45,013 nt of DNA from Acidobacteriota bacterium (GCA_028872975.1 JAGWNV010000001.1:1-45013), one strand, 5' to 3'; positions 699-20,749 are shown, counted from the first letter of the stretch. Notes: generated from the letters alone by a model not told the origin. Translations and numbers: made by a program.

Positions 699-771
699 CT
701 GGCGGGGGAGGGCTCGAACCTCCAACATCCGGCTCCAAAGGCCGGCGTTCTGCCGATTGAACTACCCGCCA
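699..771 (-). tRNA. tRNA-Gln (anticodon UUG)
   Basis: The reverse complement reads TGGCGGG TA GTTC AATCGGCA GAAC G CCGGC CTTTGGA GCCGG ATGTT GGAGG TTCGAGC CCTCC CCCGCCA G. This gives a full cloverleaf with a U1-A72 pair and G73 discriminator, typical of bacterial tRNA-Gln. CCA is not encoded. Confidence 0.9.
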
Positions 772-7779: not shown

Positions 7780-8856
7780 CTACACGTTGAACCTGATCTC
7801 GAGGACGTCCCCGTCGGCGACGTGGTAGTCCTTGCCCTCGAGCCGGATCCGGCCCCCCGACTTGGCCGCCGTCCACGAGCCGCACTCGAGCAGCTCGTCC
7901 CAGTGGATCACCTCGGCGCGGATGAACCCCCGCTGGAGGTCGGAGTGGATGACCCCGGCGCACTCCGGGGCGGTGGCCCCGGCCCGGAAGCTCCAGGCCC
8001 GCGACTCCTTGTCCCCTGTGGTGAAGAAGATCCGCCGTCCCAGAAGCTCGTAGGCGGCCGCCGCCACCCGGGGGAGGGCGCCGGCGCCGAGGCCGAGTCC
8101 CTCGAGCAGCTCCTCGCGCTCGCCGGGAGCGAGCCGGGCCGCCTCGGCCTCGAGCTGCACGCAGACGGCGAGGGTCTCCCCGTGGCCGGCCAGCTCGCCG
8201 GCCACCGGGGCCGCCACCTCCGGCGCCGCCTCGAGCTGGTCCTCGCCCACGTTGACCACGGCCAGCACCGGCTTGTCGGTGAGGAGGAACAGCCCCCGGC
8301 GCAGGGCCCGCTCCTCGGGGTCGAGCCCGGCCCGGTACAGCGGCACCCCCGACTCCAAGGCGGCCTGGGCCTTCTCCATGGCGGCCACCTCGGCGGCGAG
8401 GCTCTTGTCCGCCCTGGCCGCCTTCCGGCGCTTGTCGAGCTGGGACTCCACCGTGGCGAGGTCGGCCAGGACGAGCTCGAGCTCGAGGGTGGCCAGGGCG
8501 CCGGCGGGGTCGGCCTCGCCGGGGACCTCGGGGTCGCCGAAGGCGCGGAGCACGAGGCACAGGGCGTCGACCTCCCGGATGCCGGCGAGGAATCGGTTGC
8601 CGAGGCCCTCCCCCGCCGACGACCCGGCCACGAGCCCGGCGATGTCGACCACCTCCACGCCGGCCCGCACCACCTTCTTGCTGGCGCTCATCTCGGCCAG
8701 GGCGTCGAGGCGGCCGTCGGGGATGGGCGCCACCGCCACCGAGGACTCGGTAGTGGTGAAGGGATGGGCCGCCACCGGGGCGCTGCCACCGGTGAGGGCG
8801 TTGAACAGGGAGCTCTTGCCGGCGTTGGGCAGCCCCACGAGGCCCAGACGCTCCAT
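7780..8856 (-). CDS. ychF: Redox-regulated ribosome-binding ATPase YchF
   Basis: The internal start is MERLGLVGLPNAGKSSLFNALT (P-loop). The C-terminal TGS/YchF region includes FFTTGDKESRAWSFRAGATAPECAGVIHSDLQRGFIRAEV. Confidence 0.92.
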   Translation of the reverse strand: MERLGLVGLPNAGKSSLFNALTGGSAPVAAHPFTTTESSVAVAPIPDGRLDALAEMSASKKVVRAGVEVVDIAGLVAGSSAGEGLGNRFLAGIREVDALCLVLRAFGDPEVPGEADPAGALATLELELVLADLATVESQLDKRRKAARADKSLAAEVAAMEKAQAALESGVPLYRAGLDPEERALRRGLFLLTDKPVLAVVNVGEDQLEAAPEVAAPVAGELAGHGETLAVCVQLEAEAARLAPGEREELLEGLGLGAGALPRVAAAAYELLGRRIFFTTGDKESRAWSFRAGATAPECAGVIHSDLQRGFIRAEVIHWDELLECGSWTAAKSGGRIRLEGKDYHVADGDVLEIRFNV

Positions 8857-8929
8857 CCCACCGACGCTACTCGCCGGTCCCGGGGCGGCCGTCTCGGGGC
8901 CCCCGCCCGACCCGCTAGCGTCGTGGCCC

Positions 8930-9013
8930 ATGTCGAAGCGGACCGTGAAGCGCAAGAACCGCTCCAAGAAGAAGGCCAACCACGGGAAGCGGCCCAACGC
9001 CGGCCGCGGCTGA
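8930..9013 (+). CDS. 50S ribosomal protein bL37 (actinobacterial micro-protein)
   Basis: MSKRTVKRKNRSKKKANHGKRPNAGRG. The ANHGKRPN core matches mycobacterial bL37 as I remember it. It appears only as the tail of a shadow ORF in the track. Confidence 0.75.
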   Translation: MSKRTVKRKNRSKKKANHGKRPNAGRG

Positions 9014-9064
9014 TCCCCTCGTCGGGGGAGGGCCGCCGCCCGCCTGAGGGCGCGCCGGCCGGAG

Positions 9065-9925
9065 TCAGCCGGCGGCGGCGAGTCCCCGGCGCTCGAGGAT
9101 CGGCACCAGGACCGAGGGCAGGTCGGTGATGATCCCGTCGACCCCGAGGTCGACGAGGCGCGCCATGGCCTCGGGGTCGTTGACCGTCCAGACGTGGACG
9201 GCCACCCCGGCACCGTGGGCGGCCGCCACCACCTCGCCGTCGACGACCGCCACGCCCTGGTAGGCCTCGGGCACCTGGAGCGCCACGTGTCGGTGGGCGG
9301 GCGGCGCCTGACCCTGGCGGACGGCCCGGACGAAGCCGGCCGTGGCCAGGGTGCCGGCCGAGGTGGCGATCTCGGGGGCGAGGCGGGCGAAGGCCTCGGT
9401 GGCGGCGTCCAGGAACGAGGCGACGATGACCCGTTCGGTGTGCCCGTGGCGGCGCAGCTCGGCGGCGAGGAGGTCCTCGTAGGGCTCGACGGCGGGTGCG
9501 GTCTGCTTGATGTCGAGGTTCACCGCCACCTGCGGGTGGTCGTCGAGGACCTCGAGCACCTCGGCCAGGGTGGCCACGGCGAAGGCCCGGTCGGCGGGGC
9601 CCCGGCCCCGGTACGGGTAGGCACCCGGATCGAGCCCGGGGGTGACGTCGGCGCCGGGCGCGAACCAGAAGGCGTTGTCGAGCCGCCGCAGCTCCTCCAA
9701 GGTGAGCTCGTTGATCGACCCCGTCCCGTCGGTGGTCCGGTCGACGGTGGCGTCGTGGCAGACCACGAGCCGCCTGTCGGCGGTGGCGTGCACGTCGAGC
9801 TCGATGCCCGTCGCCCCCTTCTCGAGGGCCCGGCCGATGGCGAACAGGGTGGAGGAGGGGGCCTCCCAGGCCCCGCCCTGGTGGGCGTAGGCGACGACCC
9901 GGCGCCCCAGCCAGGGGTTCGTCAC
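9065..9925 (-). CDS. Glycerophosphodiester phosphodiesterase family protein
   Basis: VTNPWLGRRVVAYAHQGGAWEAPSSTLFAIGRALEKGATGIELDVHATADRRLVVCHDATVDRTTDGTG. The GTG start overlaps the upstream TGA (GTGA). Confidence 0.85.
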   Translation of the reverse strand: MTNPWLGRRVVAYAHQGGAWEAPSSTLFAIGRALEKGATGIELDVHATADRRLVVCHDATVDRTTDGTGSINELTLEELRRLDNAFWFAPGADVTPGLDPGAYPYRGRGPADRAFAVATLAEVLEVLDDHPQVAVNLDIKQTAPAVEPYEDLLAAELRRHGHTERVIVASFLDAATEAFARLAPEIATSAGTLATAGFVRAVRQGQAPPAHRHVALQVPEAYQGVAVVDGEVVAAAHGAGVAVHVWTVNDPEAMARLVDLGVDGIITDLPSVLVPILERRGLAAAG

Positions 9926-10983
9926 CGCAGGCCGGTCACCGCCAGGCCGGCCGCCCGGGCGAGGGCCCGGAGGTCGGCCTGGGGTCGGGCGCCGAGGTGG
10001 GAGATGACCTCCGCCGCGCACAGCCCGCCGAGCCGGGCGGCCCGCTCGGGACGCTCCCCGTGGGTGAGCCCGTAGAGGAACCCCGCCGCGTAGAGGTCCC
10101 CGGCCCCGGTGGTGTCGACGACGGCCTCCACCGCCTCGGCGGCCACTTCGGTCACCCCGTCGGGCGCCACTACCACCGACCCCGCCGCCCCCCGGGTCAC
10201 GGCGCACAGCAGTCCCGTCTCGGCGCAGGCTTCGACGGCGCCCCCGAGATCGGCGGCGCCGAAGAGCAGCCGGACCTCCTCCTCGTTGGCGAAGAGGACG
10301 TCGACCTCGCCGTGGAGCAGCGACAGGAACTCCCGCCGGTGCCGTTCGACGCAGAAGGGGTCCGACAGGCTGAGGGCCACGAGGGCCTCGTGTCCGTGGG
10401 CGATCTCGGTGGCCCGCCGGATGGCCGCCTTGGCCGGGCCGAGGTCCCACAGGTAGCCCTCGACGTAGACCACCTGCGCCCTGGCCAGGAGCGCCTCGTC
10501 GACGTCCCCGGGCCCCAGCGTGGAGGCGACCCCGAGATGGGTGGCCATGGTGCGCTCGCCGTCGGGCGTGACGAAGACGAGGCAACGGCCGGTGGCGGCG
10601 TCCTCCCCGCCCTGGGCGAGGGGCCGGGCCCGCGTGGCGAGGGTGACGCCGACGGCGGTGAGGTCGTGGACGAACACCTCGCCCAGCTCGTCGTCGGCGA
10701 CGGTCCCGATGAACCCGGCCGTGCCGCCGAGGGCCGTCACCCCGGCCACGGTGTTGGCCGCCGAGCCACCCGACACCTCGGTACCAGGGCCCATGGTGGC
10801 GTACAACGCCGCCGCCCGGTCCAGGTCGACCAGGGCCATCGTCCCCTTGGTGAGCCCGGCGCCGGCCACCGCCTCCTCCTCGGCGTGGGCGAGCACGTCG
10901 ACGAGCGCGGAGCCGAGGGCCACGACGTCGATCGGCTCCCCGGGGGCATCGGTCGCCGGCACGGGGCCCGACCCTAGTGGCAC
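9922..10983 (-). CDS. PfkB-family carbohydrate/adenosine kinase
   Basis: GSALVDVL near the N-terminus, GGSAANT, and the C-terminal DTTGAGDLYAAGFLYG motif. The start is uncertain: GTG at 10983 or 10962. The track start at 11031 would overlap pepN. Confidence 0.8.
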   Translation of the reverse strand: MPLGSGPVPATDAPGEPIDVVALGSALVDVLAHAEEEAVAGAGLTKGTMALVDLDRAAALYATMGPGTEVSGGSAANTVAGVTALGGTAGFIGTVADDELGEVFVHDLTAVGVTLATRARPLAQGGEDAATGRCLVFVTPDGERTMATHLGVASTLGPGDVDEALLARAQVVYVEGYLWDLGPAKAAIRRATEIAHGHEALVALSLSDPFCVERHRREFLSLLHGEVDVLFANEEEVRLLFGAADLGGAVEACAETGLLCAVTRGAAGSVVVAPDGVTEVAAEAVEAVVDTTGAGDLYAAGFLYGLTHGERPERAARLGGLCAAEVISHLGARPQADLRALARAAGLAVTGLR

Positions 10984-16140: not shown

Positions 16141-17543
16141 GCCGGCCGGTGCTCCTCGAGCAGGGCCCGGTACTGCGCGGCGGTCCCCTCGGCGGTGGCC
16201 CCCCACGTGTAGCGCCCGAGCACCCGCTCCCGCCCGCCCCGGCCGAGGCGCTCGGCCAGCGCCGGGTCGTCGAGCACGCGGCGGATCCCCGCCGCCAGGG
16301 CCTCGGGATCGTCGGGGGCCACGAGCAGGCCGGTCTCGCCGTCGGTGCCCACCACCTCGGGGAGGGCCCCGCCCGTGGTGGCCACGAGGGGCACCCCGCA
16401 GGCCATGGCCTCGATGGCCGGGAGCGAGAACCCCTCGTAGAGCGACGGCACCACCGCCACCTCGGCGCTGGCGTAGAGCTCGGCGAGCTCGTCGTCGGTG
16501 ATGCCCGACACGCACCGGACCGCCGGCCCCAGGCCGAGCCGCTCGATGGTCCGGGCCACCCGCCCCCCCTCGGTGGGCCGGCCCACCACGACGAGCTCGA
16601 GGTGGCGCTCGGTGCGGAGCTTGGCCACGGCCTCGAGCAGGGGCACGAGCCCCTTCATGGGGACGTCGCTCGAGGAGGTGACCATCACCCTGCCGGCGTG
16701 GCGGACCACGTCGGGCCGGGGCCGGAACACGGTGTGGTCCACCCCGACGGGCACCACCGTCATCCGGTGGAAGGGGACCCCCATCTGGGCGGCGATGTCG
16801 GCCTTCGACGACTCCGACACCGTGACGACCCTGGGCAGCTGCCGGGCCACGCGCTTTTGCATGTGGAGGAACCCGAACCAGCGCCTCTGGGTCCACCGGC
16901 GGTAGGCGTTCTCGGCCTTGGCCAGGGCGAGCTCCCGGTCGACGGTGATGGGGTGGTGCAAGGTGGTGAGCAGCGGCCAGCCGTCCTCGAGCATCCCGAG
17001 CAGCCCCGAACCGAGGCACTGGTTGTCGTGGACCACGTCGAACTCCCCCCGCCTGGCGGCGAGCAGCTGCCTGGCCCGCAGGGAGAAGGTCCGGGGCTCG
17101 GGGAACCCGGCCGTGCACATCACGGCGAACTCGAGGAGGTCGTGGCGGGAGCGGAACTCCCGGGGGTGGGGGACCCGGAAGGGGTCGGGGTCCCGGTACA
17201 GGTCGAGGCCGGGCACGGGGGTGAAGCCGACGCCGGCCTCGAGGTCGAGATGCGGCCAGGGCTGGCCGGAGAAGACCTCGACGCTGTGGCCGAGGGCGAC
17301 GAGCTCCCGGGTGAGGTGCCGGGTGTAGACGCCCTGGCCCCCACAGCGGGGATTGCCCCGGTAGACGAGGTAGGCGATCCGCAGCCCGCCCGGGCCGGGC
17401 GGTGCGGCGGGCACGGCCGGGGGCACCTCGATGCGGGTGCTGCGCTCCCAGGAGCCACGGATCTCGCCCACCCGGCGGCGCAGGTAGCCGGCCGCGGCGC
17501 CACCTGCGTCCCGCCCCAGCGCCAGCCCCCGCCCCACAGCCAT
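16134..17543 (-). CDS. Glycosyltransferase family 4
   Basis: GGQGVYTRHLTRELVALGHSVEVF near the N-terminus and the EGFSLPAIEAMACGVPLVATTGGALPEVV (E-x7-E) motif. The start may be downstream of 17543. Confidence 0.85.
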   Translation of the reverse strand: MAVGRGLALGRDAGGAAAGYLRRRVGEIRGSWERSTRIEVPPAVPAAPPGPGGLRIAYLVYRGNPRCGGQGVYTRHLTRELVALGHSVEVFSGQPWPHLDLEAGVGFTPVPGLDLYRDPDPFRVPHPREFRSRHDLLEFAVMCTAGFPEPRTFSLRARQLLAARRGEFDVVHDNQCLGSGLLGMLEDGWPLLTTLHHPITVDRELALAKAENAYRRWTQRRWFGFLHMQKRVARQLPRVVTVSESSKADIAAQMGVPFHRMTVVPVGVDHTVFRPRPDVVRHAGRVMVTSSSDVPMKGLVPLLEAVAKLRTERHLELVVVGRPTEGGRVARTIERLGLGPAVRCVSGITDDELAELYASAEVAVVPSLYEGFSLPAIEAMACGVPLVATTGGALPEVVGTDGETGLLVAPDDPEALAAGIRRVLDDPALAERLGRGGRERVLGRYTWGATAEGTAAQYRALLEEHRPAC

Positions 17544-17641
17544 GGCCGGTCAGCCTCCCCCTGATGGTCCCCGAGGCGCAAACGACTGGGGGTAGCGTGT
17601 CCGACGCGGCACCCCGTCCGCTCCCCCGGAGCCGGTCACGC

Positions 17642-18904
17642 ATGGCCATCGAGATCCTGCACCTCTCCACCGTGGTGAAGAGCGCCGTCGTCGCCCGGGA
17701 CGGGGACCGCCTCGGCCGCGTGAGCGACCTCATCGTCCGCCTCGGCGACGCCCCGCACCCGCCCCTGAGCGGCGTCGTGGTCCGCATGGGCGGCCGGGAC
17801 CTCTTCGTCCCCATCGGCCGGGTGGTCTCCCTGGAACCGGGCCGCATGGAGCTGGCCGGCGACCAGGTGAGCCTCCAGCGCTTCGAGCGCCGGCCCGGCG
17901 AGCTGCTCCTCGCCGGGGACCTCCTCGCCCGCCACGTCATCAACCTCTCCGGCGCCCGGCTCATCCGGGCCAACGAGATCGAGCTGGCCAAGGCCGACGG
18001 GCGCTGGGAGGTGGTGGGCGTCGACACGAGCCCCCGGGTGGCCTTCCGCCGCCTCCTGCCCCGGGCCTGGCGGGCCCGGGTCTCCCCCGGCACGCTCGTG
18101 GACTGGGCCACCATCGAGCCCTTCGTGGCCCACGTGCCCTCGGCCCGCCTGCGGATCCCCTACCGCAAGCTGGCCCGGCTGCACCCCGCCCAGATCGCCG
18201 ACCTGGTGGAGGCCGCCTCCCACGAGGAGGGCGAGGAGATCATCGAGGCCGTCGGCCAGGACCGCGAGCTCGAGGCCGACGTCTTCGAGGAGCTCGACGA
18301 CGAGCACCGGGTCGAGTTCGTCCGGAGCCGGTCGGACGCCGAGGCGGCCCGGCTGCTCGCCTCCATGGCCCCCGACGACGCCGCCGACCTGCTCACCGAG
18401 CTCGACCAGGAGCGGCGCTTGCCGGTGCTCAACCTGCTCCCCGCCCCCCAGCAACGCAAGATCCGGGCGCTTCTCAATTACAACCCCGAGACGGCCGGGG
18501 GCCTCATGAGCCCCGACTTCCTCTGCCTGCCCGACTCCATGTCCGTCGACCAGGTCCTCGACCAGGTCCGGGCCAGCAAGGCCCCGCCCGAGGCGCTGGC
18601 CGTGGTCTTCGCCACCGACGGCGAGAGCCGGGTGTCGGGGACGGCCTCGGTGGTGCGCATCCTCCAGGCGCCGAGCGGCTCGCGCCTGGCGGACGTGATC
18701 CGCCCCGACCCCGCCCACGTGCACGCCGACTGGGACCTCCACGCCGTGGTCCGCAAGATGTCGGACTTCAACCTCACGGTGGCCCCCGTGCTCGACGAGG
18801 ACCACCGGACGATGATGGGTGTGGTCACCGTCGACGACGTCCTCGAGCTCCTCGTGCCCTCCGGCTGGCGCCGGGACTTCGGGATGGCCCAGGCAGAGGA
18901 GTAG
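17642..18904 (+). CDS. Soluble PRC-barrel + MgtE N-domain + CBS-pair protein. This is the MgtE cytosolic sensor module without a membrane pore.
   Basis: MAIEILHLSTVVKSAVVARDGDRLGRVSDLIV (PRC-like), then ...LHPAQIADLVEAASHEEGEEII...MAPDDAADLLTELD...LLNYNPETAGGLMSPDF (MgtE_N), then a CBS pair, then TAG with no hydrophobic segments. An alternative GTG start is at 17597. Confidence 0.8.
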   Translation: MAIEILHLSTVVKSAVVARDGDRLGRVSDLIVRLGDAPHPPLSGVVVRMGGRDLFVPIGRVVSLEPGRMELAGDQVSLQRFERRPGELLLAGDLLARHVINLSGARLIRANEIELAKADGRWEVVGVDTSPRVAFRRLLPRAWRARVSPGTLVDWATIEPFVAHVPSARLRIPYRKLARLHPAQIADLVEAASHEEGEEIIEAVGQDRELEADVFEELDDEHRVEFVRSRSDAEAARLLASMAPDDAADLLTELDQERRLPVLNLLPAPQQRKIRALLNYNPETAGGLMSPDFLCLPDSMSVDQVLDQVRASKAPPEALAVVFATDGESRVSGTASVVRILQAPSGSRLADVIRPDPAHVHADWDLHAVVRKMSDFNLTVAPVLDEDHRTMMGVVTVDDVLELLVPSGWRRDFGMAQAEE

Positions 18905-18913
18905 CATGCGGCC

Positions 18914-18937
18914 GGCGCCAGGGCATCGCCCGGCGCC
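18914..18937 (+). terminator. GC-rich hairpin 10 nt after the stop codon (possible attenuator or terminator, no U-tract)
   Basis: GGCGCCAGGG-CAUCG-CCCGGCGCC, 9 bp with one bulge. Confidence 0.25.
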
Positions 18938-19111
18938 GCCACGCAGGACGACGGAGGAGCACCGCTGCACGCTGACGGGTCACCTCGACCATCCAAGCGC
19001 GCATGCCCGTCTCCGGAAGGGGCCGCCGGCACCACCGGCGGGTGATCCGGGTAGGGCGTGGGCGCCGACACACGCACGCCCACGACGCCGGCACCGTCGG
19101 GAGGTCCAGCC

Positions 19112-20749
19112 ATGGCCGAAGAGGCCGTCGACACCGAGCACGCGAGCGCCGTCCTCGACGACGCGCACCTCGGGGACATCGTCGGCGCGCTCGGCCGGAT
19201 CAGCCAGCACGACACCGGCGGCCGCCGGGGCTGGGGCGCCCGGCTGCTCACCCTGGCCGCCATCGTCGGCCCCGGCCTCATCGTCATGGTGGGCGACAAC
19301 GACGCCGGCGGCGTCGCCACCTACTCCCAGGCGGGCCAGAACTTCGGCACGAGCCTGCTGTGGACGCTCCTGCTCCTCATCCCCGTGCTCGTCGTCAACC
19401 AGGAGATGGTGGTCCGCCTGGGGGCCGTGACCGGCGTGGGACACGCCCGGCTCATCAAGGAGCGCTTCGGGCGGTTCTGGGGTTGGTTCTCGGTGAGCAA
19501 CCTCTTCGTCCTCGACTTCCTCACCATCGTCACCGAGTTCATCGGCGTCGACCTCGCCCTGTCCTACTTCGGAGTGTCGAAGTACGTCTCGGTGTCGGTG
19601 GCCGCCGCCGGGCTCGTCGCCATCACCGCCACGGGGAGCTTCCGGCGCTGGGAGCGCTTCATGCTCCTGTTCGTGGCCGCCAACTTCCTCGTCATCCCCC
19701 TGGCCGTCTTCAGCCACCCCCACGCCGGGCAGGTGGCCCGCGACTTCGTCGTCCCGGGGATCGCCGGGGGGGTGAGCTCCACCTCGGTACTCCTCGTCAT
19801 CGCCATCGTCGGCACGACCGTCGCCCCCTGGCAGCTGTTCTTCCAGCAGTCGAACATCATCGACAAGCGGATCACCCCCCGGTGGATCAACTACGAGCGC
19901 GCCGACACCGTGCTCGGCTCGGTCGTGACCGTCATCGGTGCCGCCGCCATGGTGGTCACCTGCGCCTTCGCCTTCTCCCACAGCCACTACTTCGGGGCCT
20001 TCACCGACGCCGGCGGCGTGGCCCGGGGCCTCGAGCACCGCTTGGGCTCGCCGTCAGGGGCCCTCTACTCGGTGATCCTCCTGAACGCCTCCATCATCGG
20101 CGCCGCCGCCGTCACCCTCGGGACCTCCTACGCCTTCGGCGACATGTTCGGCGCCCGCCACTCGCTGCACCGGAGCTTCCTCGAGGCGCCGGGGTTCTAC
20201 GCCAGCTTCGCCGGCCTGGTGGCGGTGGCGGCCGGCATCGTCCTCATCCCCCACGCCCCCCTCGGGCTCATCACCACCGCCGTCCAGGCCCTGGCCGGGG
20301 TCCTCCTGCCCTCGGCCTCGGTGTTCCTGCTCCTGCTCTGCAACGACAAGGAGGTGCTCGGGCCCTGGGTGAACCGGCCCTGGCTCAACGCCGTGGCCGC
20401 CCTCGTGATCGGGACCCTCATCGTCCTCTCCCTCATCCTCATGGTGACGACGGTCTTCCCCCACACAGACGTGGTGGTCCTGCTCGTCGGGCTCTTCGCC
20501 GGGCTGGGGGCGGCGCTCGTCGTGGGCGGGTTCGGCTACGCCCGCACCGTCCGCCGGGCGGCCCGGGAGCACACCGTCGACCGCCGGCGCCGGGAGACCT
20601 GGCGCATGCCCCCCCTCGCCCTCCTCGGCCGCCCCGAGTGGACCCGGGGCCGGACCCTCGCCATGCGGGCCATGAGCGGCTACCTGGTGCTGGCCGTGCT
20701 CCTGCTCTTCGTCAAGGCCGGCCAGCTCGGGGCGGGCGGGGCCCACTGA
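19112..20749 (+). CDS. Nramp/SLC11-fold transporter of the non-canonical (NRMT-like, putative Mg2+) type
   Basis: GPGLIVMVGDNDAGGVATYSQAG replaces the canonical ...DPGN... motif, and IVGTTVAPWQLFFQQS replaces ...A..MPH.... There are 11-12 hydrophobic helices. The start is taken at ATG 19112, which is preceded by GGGAGG at 19099-19104. Confidence 0.8.
   Translation: MAEEAVDTEHASAVLDDAHLGDIVGALGRISQHDTGGRRGWGARLLTLAAIVGPGLIVMVGDNDAGGVATYSQAGQNFGTSLLWTLLLLIPVLVVNQEMVVRLGAVTGVGHARLIKERFGRFWGWFSVSNLFVLDFLTIVTEFIGVDLALSYFGVSKYVSVSVAAAGLVAITATGSFRRWERFMLLFVAANFLVIPLAVFSHPHAGQVARDFVVPGIAGGVSSTSVLLVIAIVGTTVAPWQLFFQQSNIIDKRITPRWINYERADTVLGSVVTVIGAAAMVVTCAFAFSHSHYFGAFTDAGGVARGLEHRLGSPSGALYSVILLNASIIGAAAVTLGTSYAFGDMFGARHSLHRSFLEAPGFYASFAGLVAVAAGIVLIPHAPLGLITTAVQALAGVLLPSASVFLLLLCNDKEVLGPWVNRPWLNAVAALVIGTLIVLSLILMVTTVFPHTDVVVLLVGLFAGLGAALVVGGFGYARTVRRAAREHTVDRRRRETWRMPPLALLGRPEWTRGRTLAMRAMSGYLVLAVLLLFVKAGQLGAGGAH

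What the first reader, a model, noticed from the sequence alone, without database searches (positions are those of the whole stretch)
17597..20749. Pore-less MgtE-type Mg2+ sensor module encoded next to an Nramp-fold transporter that lacks the transition-metal site
Seen in the sequence: gene 1 (17642-18904) has PRC-barrel-like repeats, an MgtE N-domain (...MAPDDAADLLTELD...NYNPETAGGLMSPDF) and a CBS pair. It then stops with no transmembrane segment, so it is the complete cytosolic regulatory half of MgtE without the channel. Gene 2 starts 207 nt downstream on the same strand and has the SLC11/Nramp fold. In TM1 the canonical DPGN reads DAGG (MVGDNDAGGVATYSQAG). In TM6 the A-x-x-M-P-H motif reads TTVAPWQ, so Met is replaced by Ala and His by Trp. 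Established knowledge: the TM6 Met and the TM1 Asn are the ligands that give Nramps their Mn2+/Fe2+ selectivity. An Nramp-related clade lacking them (NRMT, characterised from Eggerthella lenta) transports Mg2+. In MgtE the N-domain plus CBS domains close the pore when Mg2+ is bound. Inference: this pair may be a two-polypeptide Mg2+ uptake system in which a free MgtE-like sensor gates or regulates an NRMT. I do not know of any description of such a system.
Basis: partly seen in the sequence, partly recalled or inferred. Interest (0 to 1): 0.72.

Follow-up and report, generated by a model that had tools for sequence, protein, structure and literature searches.

The report
Known NRMT transporter with MgtE-like partner
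This is a real two-gene unit, a soluble copy of the magnesium-sensing half of the MgtE channel next to an Nramp-related magnesium-type transporter, but the pairing and the idea that the sensor regulates the transporter were already published in 2014, so this is a new example of a known and still unresolved system.

Summary
Gene 1 (17642-18904, 420 aa) has tandem PRC-like barrels, an MgtE_N domain, a CBS pair and no membrane segment. Gene 2 (19112-20749, 545 aa) is an Nramp-fold protein of the NRMT type. Its TM1 reads DAGG and its TM6 reads TTVAPWQ. Its best solved relative is EleNRMT (E 2e-57), against 1e-16 or weaker for MntH-type proteins.

The adjacency is strongly conserved. Of 80 genomic loci with a gene-1 homologue, 79 carry an NRMT-type gene nearby, usually immediately downstream. 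Of 45 informative NRMT metagenome loci, 40 carry the partner. Partner lineages track the transporter subtype.

The novelty claim fails. Shin et al. 2014 (PLoS Genet, PMC4072509) described this "MgtE-like fragment" next to most nrmT genes. They co-expressed one pair without effect and proposed cytoplasmic feedback regulation.

This work adds four points:
- Most of MgtE's Mg2+ ligands at the N-domain/CBS interface are conserved across the family.
- MgtE's acidic plug helix is replaced by a basic W-R-R tail.
- The PRC-like barrels are a constant part of the partner.
- M-box riboswitches precede this NRMT subtype in relatives but not here, where only a conserved leader block remains.

Verdict: new member of a known kind. 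The partner's mechanism is still untested.

The parts
17642..18904 (+). Gene 1: soluble MgtE-like partner protein (420 aa), with tandem PRC-like barrels, MgtE_N, a CBS pair and a basic tail
   Evidence: ORF and translation. Pfam hits. PDB sequence search. AF2 model with pLDDT 87; Foldseek top hits are MgtE cytosolic domains. No TM segment.
17660..17854 (+). PRC barrel 1 (residues 7-71)
   Evidence: Pfam PF05239, 21.9 bits on the whole protein and 25 bits on the fragment. The hit is present in 27 of 36 diverse family members, best E 4e-12.
17876..18166 (+). Second beta-rich, PRC-like region with an insertion (residues 79-175)
   Evidence: No Pfam hit. hhalign against barrel 1 gives probability 77%, E 2e-5. 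The AF2 model shows beta strands at 87-128 and 152-160.
18179..18487 (+). MgtE_N domain (residues 180-282). It carries D213, D245 and D249, which align with MgtE residues E59 (site Mg7), D91 (Mg4) and D95 (Mg6).
   Evidence: Pfam E 6e-21. Residue mapping from the alignment and the site list in PMC5882242. Conservation is 35/36 (D or E), 34/36 and 36/36 in alignment A1.
18491..18856 (+). CBS pair (residues 284-405). D399 aligns with MgtE D247, E402 with D250, and N377 with D226.
   Evidence: Conservation: D399 in 35/36, an acidic residue at 402 in 29/36, N377 in 33/36.
18857..18901 (+). C-terminal tail P406-x-x-W409-R410-R411. It occupies the place of MgtE's acidic plug helix (E255, E258, D259) but is basic.
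   Evidence: Alignment A1. Counts: P 33/36, W 27/36, R or K 31/36 at position 410. AF2 pLDDT falls from 70 to 48 here, so the tail is probably flexible on its own.
18950..19111 (+). Conserved leader block immediately 5' of gene 2. It contains two purine-rich SD-like stretches and a possible 11-12 bp long-range helix.
   Evidence: Alignment of spacers. RNAalifold. Covariance model R1 scores 136 bits here and 159-179 bits in six of the seven relatives, with L100 at 65 bits, always just 5' of the NRMT start. In L100 the block lies directly 3' of a true M-box. RNA structure is not proven: MFE z-score is -0.18.
19112..20749 (+). Gene 2: NRMT-type (Nramp-related magnesium transporter) protein, 545 aa, subtype A
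   Evidence: Pfam Nramp E 2e-75. EleNRMT 7qia scores 198 bits, against 62 bits or less for all other SLC11 structures. Homologue lengths support the start.
19295..19312 (+). TM1 motif DNDAGG (residues 62-67). D64 aligns with EleNRMT D55 and G67 with G58. It replaces the DPGN of Mn/Fe Nramps.
   Evidence: NDAGG is present in all 73 adjacent Nramp-fold genes for which this segment was recovered across loci L002-L081.
19814..19834 (+). TM6 motif TTVAPWQ (residues 235-241). T235 aligns with EleNRMT T224. Ala replaces the Nramp Met and Trp replaces the His.
   Evidence: GTT(V/I)(A/T)P(W/Y/F) is present in every adjacent transporter for which this segment was recovered.
20459..20746 (+). Subtype-A C-terminal extension. 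It has two extra hydrophobic segments (about 453-475 and 517-538) flanking an Arg-rich loop with a conserved W-R-M-P-x-L-x-L-L. EleNRMT and subtype B lack it.
   Evidence: Hydropathy. Alignment A4. No Pfam hit.

Best explanation
The pair is an Acidimicrobiales member of the two-gene module described by Shin et al. 2014. The module consists of an NRMT (an Nramp-fold transporter that lacks the transition-metal ligands and the proton path, and most likely carries hydrated Mg2+ and also Mn2+ down the membrane potential) and a soluble MgtE-type sensor.

Shown here: the identity of both proteins, the absence of a pore domain in gene 1, the near-obligate adjacency, the co-diversification of the two genes, and the conservation of most of MgtE's N-domain/CBS-interface Mg2+ ligands.

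Inferred: the partner binds cytosolic Mg2+ (possibly with ATP) between its N and CBS domains, as MgtE does. It would then switch conformation and act directly on the transporter to throttle an otherwise uncoupled influx when Mg2+ is sufficient. The PRC-like barrels and the basic W-R-R tail, which replaces MgtE's acidic plug helix, are the candidate docking or plugging elements.

In this genome the riboswitch layer seen in relatives (an M-box 5' of the NRMT) is absent. The protein sensor would therefore be the main Mg2+-responsive control.
For: Domain assignments. AF2 and Foldseek.

NRMT identity: 198 bits to EleNRMT against 62 bits or less to MntH-type structures, with DAGG and TxxAPW motifs.

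EleNRMT is an uncoupled Mg2+/Mn2+ transporter in which T224 and G58 shape selectivity (PMC8806188). An uncoupled importer needs feedback control, as the MgtE channel does.

Adjacency: 79 of 80 genomic loci spanning Acidimicrobiia, Thermoleophilia and Dormibacterota. 40 of 45 informative NRMT-first metagenome loci. Three more distant family members are also linked to an Nramp gene. All adjacent transporters for which the motif segments were recovered carry NRMT motifs.

Partners of the subtype-B transporters form one clade in a neighbour-joining tree.

Ligand positions: D91, D95, E59, D247 and D250 equivalents are conserved in 29-36 of 36 sequences, down to 26% identity (sites from PMC5882242).

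M-box riboswitches (RF00380, 83-142 bits) lie directly 5' of this NRMT subtype or of the pair in relatives L100, L102, L122 and L134, and 5' of paralogues in L113, L143, L147 and L153.

Prior description and the same hypothesis: PMC4072509.
Against: No evidence of physical contact was obtained, because complex prediction was not possible with the tools.

In the only published test, co-expressing Acp2976 with Acp2977 did not alter rescue. That transporter behaved mainly as a Mn2+ importer, so the partner may respond to Mn2+ or do something else (PMC4072509).

NRMTs work without the partner.

The Mg5 ligand D226 is Asn in 33 of 36 family members. The plug-helix ligands of sites Mg2 and Mg3 are lost. 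MgtE-like sensing is therefore not fully retained.

5 of 45 NRMT loci lack the partner within 6 kb.

The window has no M-box.
Confidence: 0.55

Rival explanations
1. The module is primarily a manganese (or broader divalent cation) importer rather than a magnesium system. The partner would sense Mn2+ or another signal such as adenine nucleotides through its CBS pair.
For: A. capsulatum Acp2977, which also has an adjacent MgtE-like gene, rescued a Mn2+-uptake mutant and only weakly rescued Mg2+ auxotrophy (PMC4072509). EleNRMT transports Mn2+ as well as Mg2+. The window has no M-box. MgtE's CBS domains also bind ATP (PDB 5x9g appears among the hits).
Against: M-box (Mg2+) riboswitches directly precede this same NRMT subtype in several relatives. 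The TM1 and TM6 residues match those shown to support Mg2+ transport in EleNRMT. Five of MgtE's six cytosolic N-domain/CBS-interface Mg2+ ligand positions (E59, D91, D95, D247, D250) are conserved; the sixth, D226, is usually Asn.
Confidence: 0.2
2. The partner is not a gate. It acts at another level, for example as a metallochaperone handing off imported ions, as an assembly or stability factor, or as a regulator that binds the conserved leader RNA or DNA between the two genes.
For: The chaperone alternative was raised by Shin et al.. PRC barrels occur in proteins that bind other macromolecules (my own knowledge). A conserved 160-nt block with two SD-like stretches lies between the genes. Co-expression had no visible effect on transport-dependent rescue.
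Against: The leader block is confined to a narrow clade, whereas the gene pairing is very broad. L092 has the block but no partner gene within the 1.6 kb upstream and 1.5 kb downstream that the contig provides. Gene 1 has no nucleic-acid-binding domain detectable by Pfam.
Confidence: 0.15
3. Gene 1 is the detached half of a split MgtE channel whose pore domain is encoded elsewhere, and its position next to the Nramp-fold gene is incidental.
For: Gene 1 aligns to MgtE through the end of the CBS pair.
Against: Adjacency to NRMT-type genes holds in 79 of 80 loci across three high-rank lineages. No MgtE TM domain is in the neighbourhood. The family has its own constant additions (PRC barrels, basic tail) and lacks the acidic plug helix that couples MgtE's sensor to its pore. 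The family has 491 50%-identity clusters at E<1e-30; among the best 150 listed, the full-length members are about 400-450 aa.
Confidence: 0.03

Closest known systems
NrmT with 'MgtE-like fragment' operons (Shin et al. 2014, PLoS Genet; C. acetobutylicum Ca_c0685 operon; A. capsulatum Acp2976/Acp2977)
   Same: Same two-gene architecture. A soluble homologue of the MgtE cytoplasmic domain is encoded immediately upstream of an Nramp-related transporter that lacks the Mn/Fe signature. The same regulatory hypothesis was proposed there.
   Different: There is no M-box in this window. The transporter belongs to a longer subtype with a conserved N-terminal cytoplasmic segment and two extra C-terminal hydrophobic segments. 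The tandem PRC-like barrels and the basic tail of the partner are not mentioned in that paper: a text search for 'PRC' found nothing.
EleNRMT (Eggerthella lenta; PDB 7qia/7qic; Ramanadane et al. 2022, eLife)
   Same: Closest solved relative of gene 2 (E 2e-57). It shares D-A-G-G in TM1, T-x-x-A-P-W in TM6, the TM3 Glu, and a Gln in TM10 that sits one position off EleNRMT Q379 in the ungapped alignment.
   Different: About 33% identity. EleNRMT lacks the N- and C-terminal extensions (subtype B in my loci resembles it more closely). It was studied alone, and that paper does not discuss a partner.
MgtE Mg2+ channel (Thermus thermophilus; PDB 2yvx/2yvy)
   Same: The N domain and CBS pair are homologous (E 1e-26). 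The acidic residues forming sites Mg4, Mg6 and Mg7 and half of Mg5 are conserved.
   Different: There is no pore domain. The acidic plug helix (sites Mg2 and Mg3) is replaced by a basic W-R-R tail. D226 is Asn. About 175 residues of PRC-like barrels are added at the N terminus. The partner would have to act in trans on an unrelated fold.
M-box (ykoK) riboswitch-controlled Mg2+ transporter genes
   Same: Relatives of this locus carry true M-boxes 5' of the same transporter subtype.
   Different: The window has only the block that lies 3' of the aptamer in L100. No aptamer is detectable at E<=1.

Membership tests
NRMT (Nramp-related magnesium transporter clade of Pfam PF01566) | Nramp/LeuT-type fold | tested here: met
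   PF01566 E 2e-75, full-length match 1-356 of 357.
NRMT (Nramp-related magnesium transporter clade of Pfam PF01566) | TM1 D-A-G-G in place of D-P-G-N (the Asn ligand replaced by Gly) | tested here: met
   DNDAGG at residues 62-67, aligned to EleNRMT NDAGG.
NRMT (Nramp-related magnesium transporter clade of Pfam PF01566) | TM6 T-x-x-A-P-W in place of A-x-x-M-P-H (Met ligand lost, Thr gained, proton-path His lost) | tested here: met
   TTVAPWQ at residues 235-241, followed by LFFQQS with no His, against EleNRMT TTIAPWMMFFNQS.
NRMT (Nramp-related magnesium transporter clade of Pfam PF01566) | Closer to characterised NRMT than to MntH/Nramp | tested here: met
   198 bits to 7qia against 62 bits or less to every other SLC11 structure. 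NCBIfam MntH models score far below their cut-offs: 93 against 430. No full phylogeny was built.
NRMT (Nramp-related magnesium transporter clade of Pfam PF01566) | Transports Mg2+ without proton coupling | not testable with these tools
   Inferred only from motif identity and from M-box linkage in relatives.
NrmT-associated MgtE-like fragment (Shin et al. 2014) | [quoted passage not shown] | tested here: met
NrmT-associated MgtE-like fragment (Shin et al. 2014) | No transmembrane pore domain | tested here: met
   The protein ends 15 residues after the CBS pair. Maximum hydropathy is 1.23. There is no PF01769 hit.
NrmT-associated MgtE-like fragment (Shin et al. 2014) | Encoded next to, usually just upstream of, an nrmT gene | tested here: met
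   207-nt spacer on the same strand in the window. 79 of 80 and 40 of 45 loci in the two censuses.
MgtE channel (TIGR00400 / PF01769) | C-terminal five-helix pore domain | tested here: not met
   TIGR00400 scores 103 bits against a cut-off of 233, covering only profile positions 26-252 of 450. Gene 1 is therefore not an MgtE channel.
MgtE channel (TIGR00400 / PF01769) | Acidic plug helix carrying Mg2/Mg3 ligands (E258, D259) | tested here: not met
   Replaced by W409-R410-R411, and basic across the family.
M-box riboswitch (RF00380) controlled operon | M-box aptamer in the 5' leader | tested here: not met
   No hit in the window at gathering score. No hit at E<=1 across 17300-19300. The aptamer is present in relatives L100, L102, L122 and L134.

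The most novel reading that the evidence does not exclude
The soluble PRC-PRC-MgtE_N-CBS protein is a trans-acting, Mg2+-sensing (possibly also ATP-sensing) gate. It would dock on the cytoplasmic face of a LeuT-fold uniporter and insert or withdraw its basic W-R-R tail. MgtE's sensor would thus have been re-used on an unrelated transporter fold. In lineages like this one, the protein sensor would have taken over from an M-box riboswitch whose aptamer has decayed, leaving only the downstream leader.
Probability: 0.35. Interest if true: 0.55.

Novelty: new member of a known kind. Interest (0 to 1): 0.3.

Why it matters
NRMTs are the fourth class of bacterial Mg2+ importers and are uncoupled, so something must stop them from overloading the cell. 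The MgtE-like partner has been the obvious candidate since 2014, but the library searched here holds no experimental follow-up of it. The comparative data here sharpen that question:
- They show which MgtE sensor residues are kept and which are replaced.
- They identify the PRC barrels and the basic tail as family-constant features that mutagenesis could target.
- They show that the module is very widespread in soil Actinomycetota and neighbouring phyla.
- They show that riboswitch control and protein-sensor control coexist or alternate in close relatives.

None of this changes the classification. The system is already in the literature.

Tried and rejected
1. Complex prediction. Both genes are in the same frame, so I tried a read-through translation as one chain. 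A Gly-Ser fusion aligned with homologues of both proteins gave a scrambled MAFFT alignment (A7), so I did not submit it. No interface evidence was obtained.

2. Locus scan with the 36-sequence alignment A1. It was too diverse for the pattern search. The narrower A2 was used instead, so the genomic census reaches only down to about 45% identity to gene 1.

3. NRMT-first census. The metagenome scan kept only subtype-A relatives (56% identity or more), so it says nothing about subtype B or about Firmicutes NRMTs.

4. Specificity-determining positions in the partner that would separate A-linked from B-linked proteins. None passed strict thresholds.

5. RNA structure of the leader block. Pair counts look good but come from a model-fitted alignment. 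The window copy folds no better than shuffles (z -0.18). I do not claim a structured RNA.

6. A conserved small ORF in the leader. Only a possible CTG-started peptide with four loosely conserved codons was seen by eye. It is not convincing.

7. Split-MgtE idea. Rejected, as set out under rival explanations.

Full report
**1. What is in the window**

The window has 71-80% G+C. The closest homologues of both proteins come from Acidimicrobiales metagenome-assembled genomes.

Gene 1 (17642-18904, + strand, 420 aa) matches three Pfam families:
- PRC at residues 7-71, marginal at 21.9 bits against a cut-off of 21.2.
- MgtE_N at 180-282, E 6e-21.
- CBS at 350-404, E 2e-14.

The NCBIfam MgtE equivalog matches only its cytosolic part (profile positions 26-252 of 450), at 103 bits against a cut-off of 233. 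Residues 177-405 align with the crystallised cytosolic domain of Thermus thermophilus MgtE (2yvy, E 1e-26). An AlphaFold2 model (mean pLDDT 87, pTM 0.62) finds MgtE cytosolic domains as its best structural matches. No stretch is hydrophobic enough to span a membrane.

Gene 2 (19112-20749, + strand, 545 aa) is a full-length Pfam Nramp match (E 2e-75). Its best solved relative by a wide margin is EleNRMT from Eggerthella lenta, at 198 bits (E 2e-57). Every Mn/Fe-type SLC11 structure scores 62 bits or less. The one nuance is that only the first PRC barrel is a database hit. The second (residues 79-175) is supported by an internal profile-profile match (hhalign 77%, E 2e-5) and by the beta-rich model.

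**2. Transporter type**

TM1 reads D64-A-G-G67 and TM6 reads T235-T-V-A238-P-W240. These align position for position with D55-A-G-G58 and T224-T-I-A-P-W of EleNRMT. In EleNRMT:
- D55 and Q379 are essential.
- T224 is needed for Mg2+ transport.
- G58 replaces the Nramp Asn.
- The two TM6b histidines of the proton path are Trp and Asn.
- Transport of Mg2+ and Mn2+ is not coupled to protons (PMC8806188).

Gene 2 has Trp and Gln at the two histidine positions. It keeps the TM3 Glu and a TM10 Gln. It therefore meets every sequence criterion of the NRMT clade. Substrate and coupling remain inferred.

Compared with EleNRMT, gene 2 has three additions:
- A conserved N-terminal cytoplasmic segment (AVLDDAHxGDIxGAxG).
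- Two extra C-terminal hydrophobic segments.
- An Arg-rich loop between those segments containing W-R-M-P-x-L-x-L-L.

I call this subtype A. A shorter subtype resembling EleNRMT, subtype B, also occurs next to gene-1 homologues.

**3. Is the pairing real?**

The gene-1 family is large. There are 491 clusters (at 50% identity) with E<1e-30 and 3774 with E<1e-10. Among the best 150 listed, the full-length members are about 400-450 aa and align over nearly the whole query (alignment A1).

A scan of one genome per species returned 80 loci from Acidimicrobiia, Thermoleophilia (Solirubrobacterales, Gaiellaceae) and Dormibacterota. In 79 of them an Nramp-fold gene lies nearby, usually directly downstream on the same strand. 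The single exception is cut by a contig end. Every one of those transporters for which the motif segments were recovered has NDAGG in TM1 and GTT(V/I)(A/T)P(W/Y/F) in TM6. None has the Mn/Fe signature.

The reverse census started from the transporter, using 80 metagenome loci that were all subtype A. Of the 45 loci with at least 1.7 kb of upstream sequence, 40 have the partner. The other five have no family member within the flanks, even by HMM search.

Three further family members, two without BLAST-level similarity to gene 1 and one 607-aa variant, are also linked to Nramp genes.

In a neighbour-joining tree of the partners, those next to subtype-B transporters form one clade. That clade is separate from the partners of subtype A found in the same orders. 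The two genes have therefore diversified together as a unit. The genes flanking the pair in the window are unrelated: glycosyltransferase, methyltransferases, M1 peptidase, polysaccharide deacetylase, MFS with MarR, NifU and thiolase.

**4. Already described**

Shin et al. 2014 (PLoS Genet 10:e1004429, PMC4072509) defined NrmT. [quoted passage not shown] That gene is often co-transcribed under an M-box riboswitch.

They co-expressed the A. capsulatum pair (Acp2976/Acp2977) and saw no further rescue. [quoted passage not shown]

Later papers in the searchable library do not take up the partner. These include the EleNRMT structure paper and Cellier's evolutionary papers. No solved structure of a partner or of a complex appears in the PDB searches. 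The mechanism is still open.

**5. What the sequence says about mechanism**

I mapped the Mg2+ sites of T. thermophilus MgtE onto the family. The site list comes from PMC5882242: Mg2 E258, Mg3 D259, Mg4 D91/D247, Mg5 D226/D250, Mg6 D95, Mg7 E59. The mapping uses the alignment, and the counts over 36 diverse members come.

| MgtE residue (site) | Gene-1 residue | Conservation in 36 members |
|---|---|---|
| E59 (Mg7) | D213 | D or E in 35 |
| D91 (Mg4) | D245 | D in 34 |
| D95 (Mg6) | D249 | D in 36 |
| D247 (Mg4) | D399 | D in 35 |
| D250 (Mg5) | E402 | D or E in 29 |
| D226 (Mg5) | N377 | N in 33 |

The acidic clamp between the N domain and the CBS pair drives MgtE's Mg2+-dependent closure. 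It is largely retained down to 26% identity.

MgtE's acidic plug helix (E255, E258, D259) bridges to the pore through Mg2+. In its place the family has a conserved P-x-x-W-R/K-R/K tail (P in 33, W in 27, basic at position 410 in 31 of 36). In the monomer model the tail has low confidence.

The tandem PRC-like barrels are a constant N-terminal addition. Pfam PRC hits 27 of 36 members. The 2014 paper does not mention them.

My reading is that the sensor half works as in MgtE, while the output half has been rebuilt for a different target. The barrels and the basic tail are the likely contact elements. This last step is inference only.

**6. Magnesium link from relatives, and a side finding**

The window has no M-box. 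The 207-nt spacer nevertheless contains a 160-nt block (18950-19111) that is conserved in the closest relatives. A covariance model built from it finds the block only just 5' of subtype-A transporter starts. It scores 136-179 bits in the window and six of the seven relatives, 65 bits in L100, and is weak elsewhere.

In one of these relatives, L100, a true M-box aptamer (RF00380, 126.7 bits) sits between the partner gene and this block. By eye, the L002 group seems to keep only the closing stem of that aptamer around a short hairpin.

M-boxes confirmed by Rfam also occur in these positions:
- 5' of the subtype-A gene in L102 and L134.
- 5' of the pair in L122.
- 5' of a second subtype-A-like paralogue without its own partner in L113, L143, L147 and L153. 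That paralogue has TM1 DNDAGA and is about 55% identical to gene 2.

This ties the subtype to Mg2+ by the same logic Shin et al. used. It also suggests that riboswitch control and protein-sensor control coexist or alternate.

Whether the block is a structured RNA is unproven. The pair statistics come from a model-fitted alignment, and the window copy folds no better than shuffled sequence. Translational M-box platforms with paired SD-like elements have recently been described in mycobacteria (PMC12810186). That is a lead, not a test.

**7. Verdict**

The locus is a new, riboswitch-less, long-subtype member of the known NrmT/MgtE-like module. Interest is modest, because a specialist would recognise it at once. 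The useful residue is a sharper, testable picture of the partner (conserved clamp, rebuilt output end, PRC barrels) and a set of about 120 natural pairs for co-evolution or multimer modelling.

Noticed in passing
window 18950-19111: A conserved ~160-nt block lies immediately 5' of the NRMT gene and is shared with seven relatives. It has two SD-like purine runs and a possible 11-12 bp long-range helix (GCGCGCAYGCC with GGCGTGSGCGC). It has no Rfam match and no thermodynamic signal. In relative L100 the same block lies directly 3' of a true M-box aptamer.
   Followed up: partly
L100:1990-2160; L102:212-378; L134:120-291; L122:3682-3866: True M-box riboswitches (RF00380, 127-142 bits) sit 5' of subtype-A NRMT genes, or of the partner-NRMT pair, in soil metagenome relatives. 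In L100 the M-box lies between the partner gene and the transporter gene, so there only the transporter appears to be under riboswitch control.
   Followed up: partly
L147:2247-3899(-), L113:1893-3572(-), L153:8243-9973(+), L143:3892-5574(-): A second subtype-A-like NRMT paralogue lies next to the partner-linked copy. Its TM1 reads DNDAGA instead of DNDAGG, and it is about 55% identical to gene 2. It is preceded by its own M-box and has no partner gene of its own.
   Followed up: partly
window 19112-19246 and 20459-20746: Subtype-A NRMTs carry a conserved N-terminal cytoplasmic segment (AVLDDAHxGDIxGAxG). They also carry two extra C-terminal hydrophobic segments around an Arg-rich loop containing W-R-M-P-x-L-x-L-L. 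EleNRMT and subtype B lack these features, and none has a Pfam match.
   Followed up: partly
L081:6682-8286 and 8753-10387: Two subtype-A NRMT genes in tandem follow a single partner gene.
   Followed up: no
L083:293-2116 (protein P0391): A 607-aa member of the partner family scores much higher against the family profile (715 bits) than the ~420-aa members do. This suggests duplicated or extra domains. It too is followed by an Nramp gene.
   Followed up: no
window 20712-20749: The 3' end of gene 2 overlaps by about 38 nt the 3' end of a convergent polysaccharide deacetylase gene on the minus strand.
   Followed up: no
window 699-771 (-): This tRNA gene is the only Rfam match at gathering score in the whole window.
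   Followed up: no
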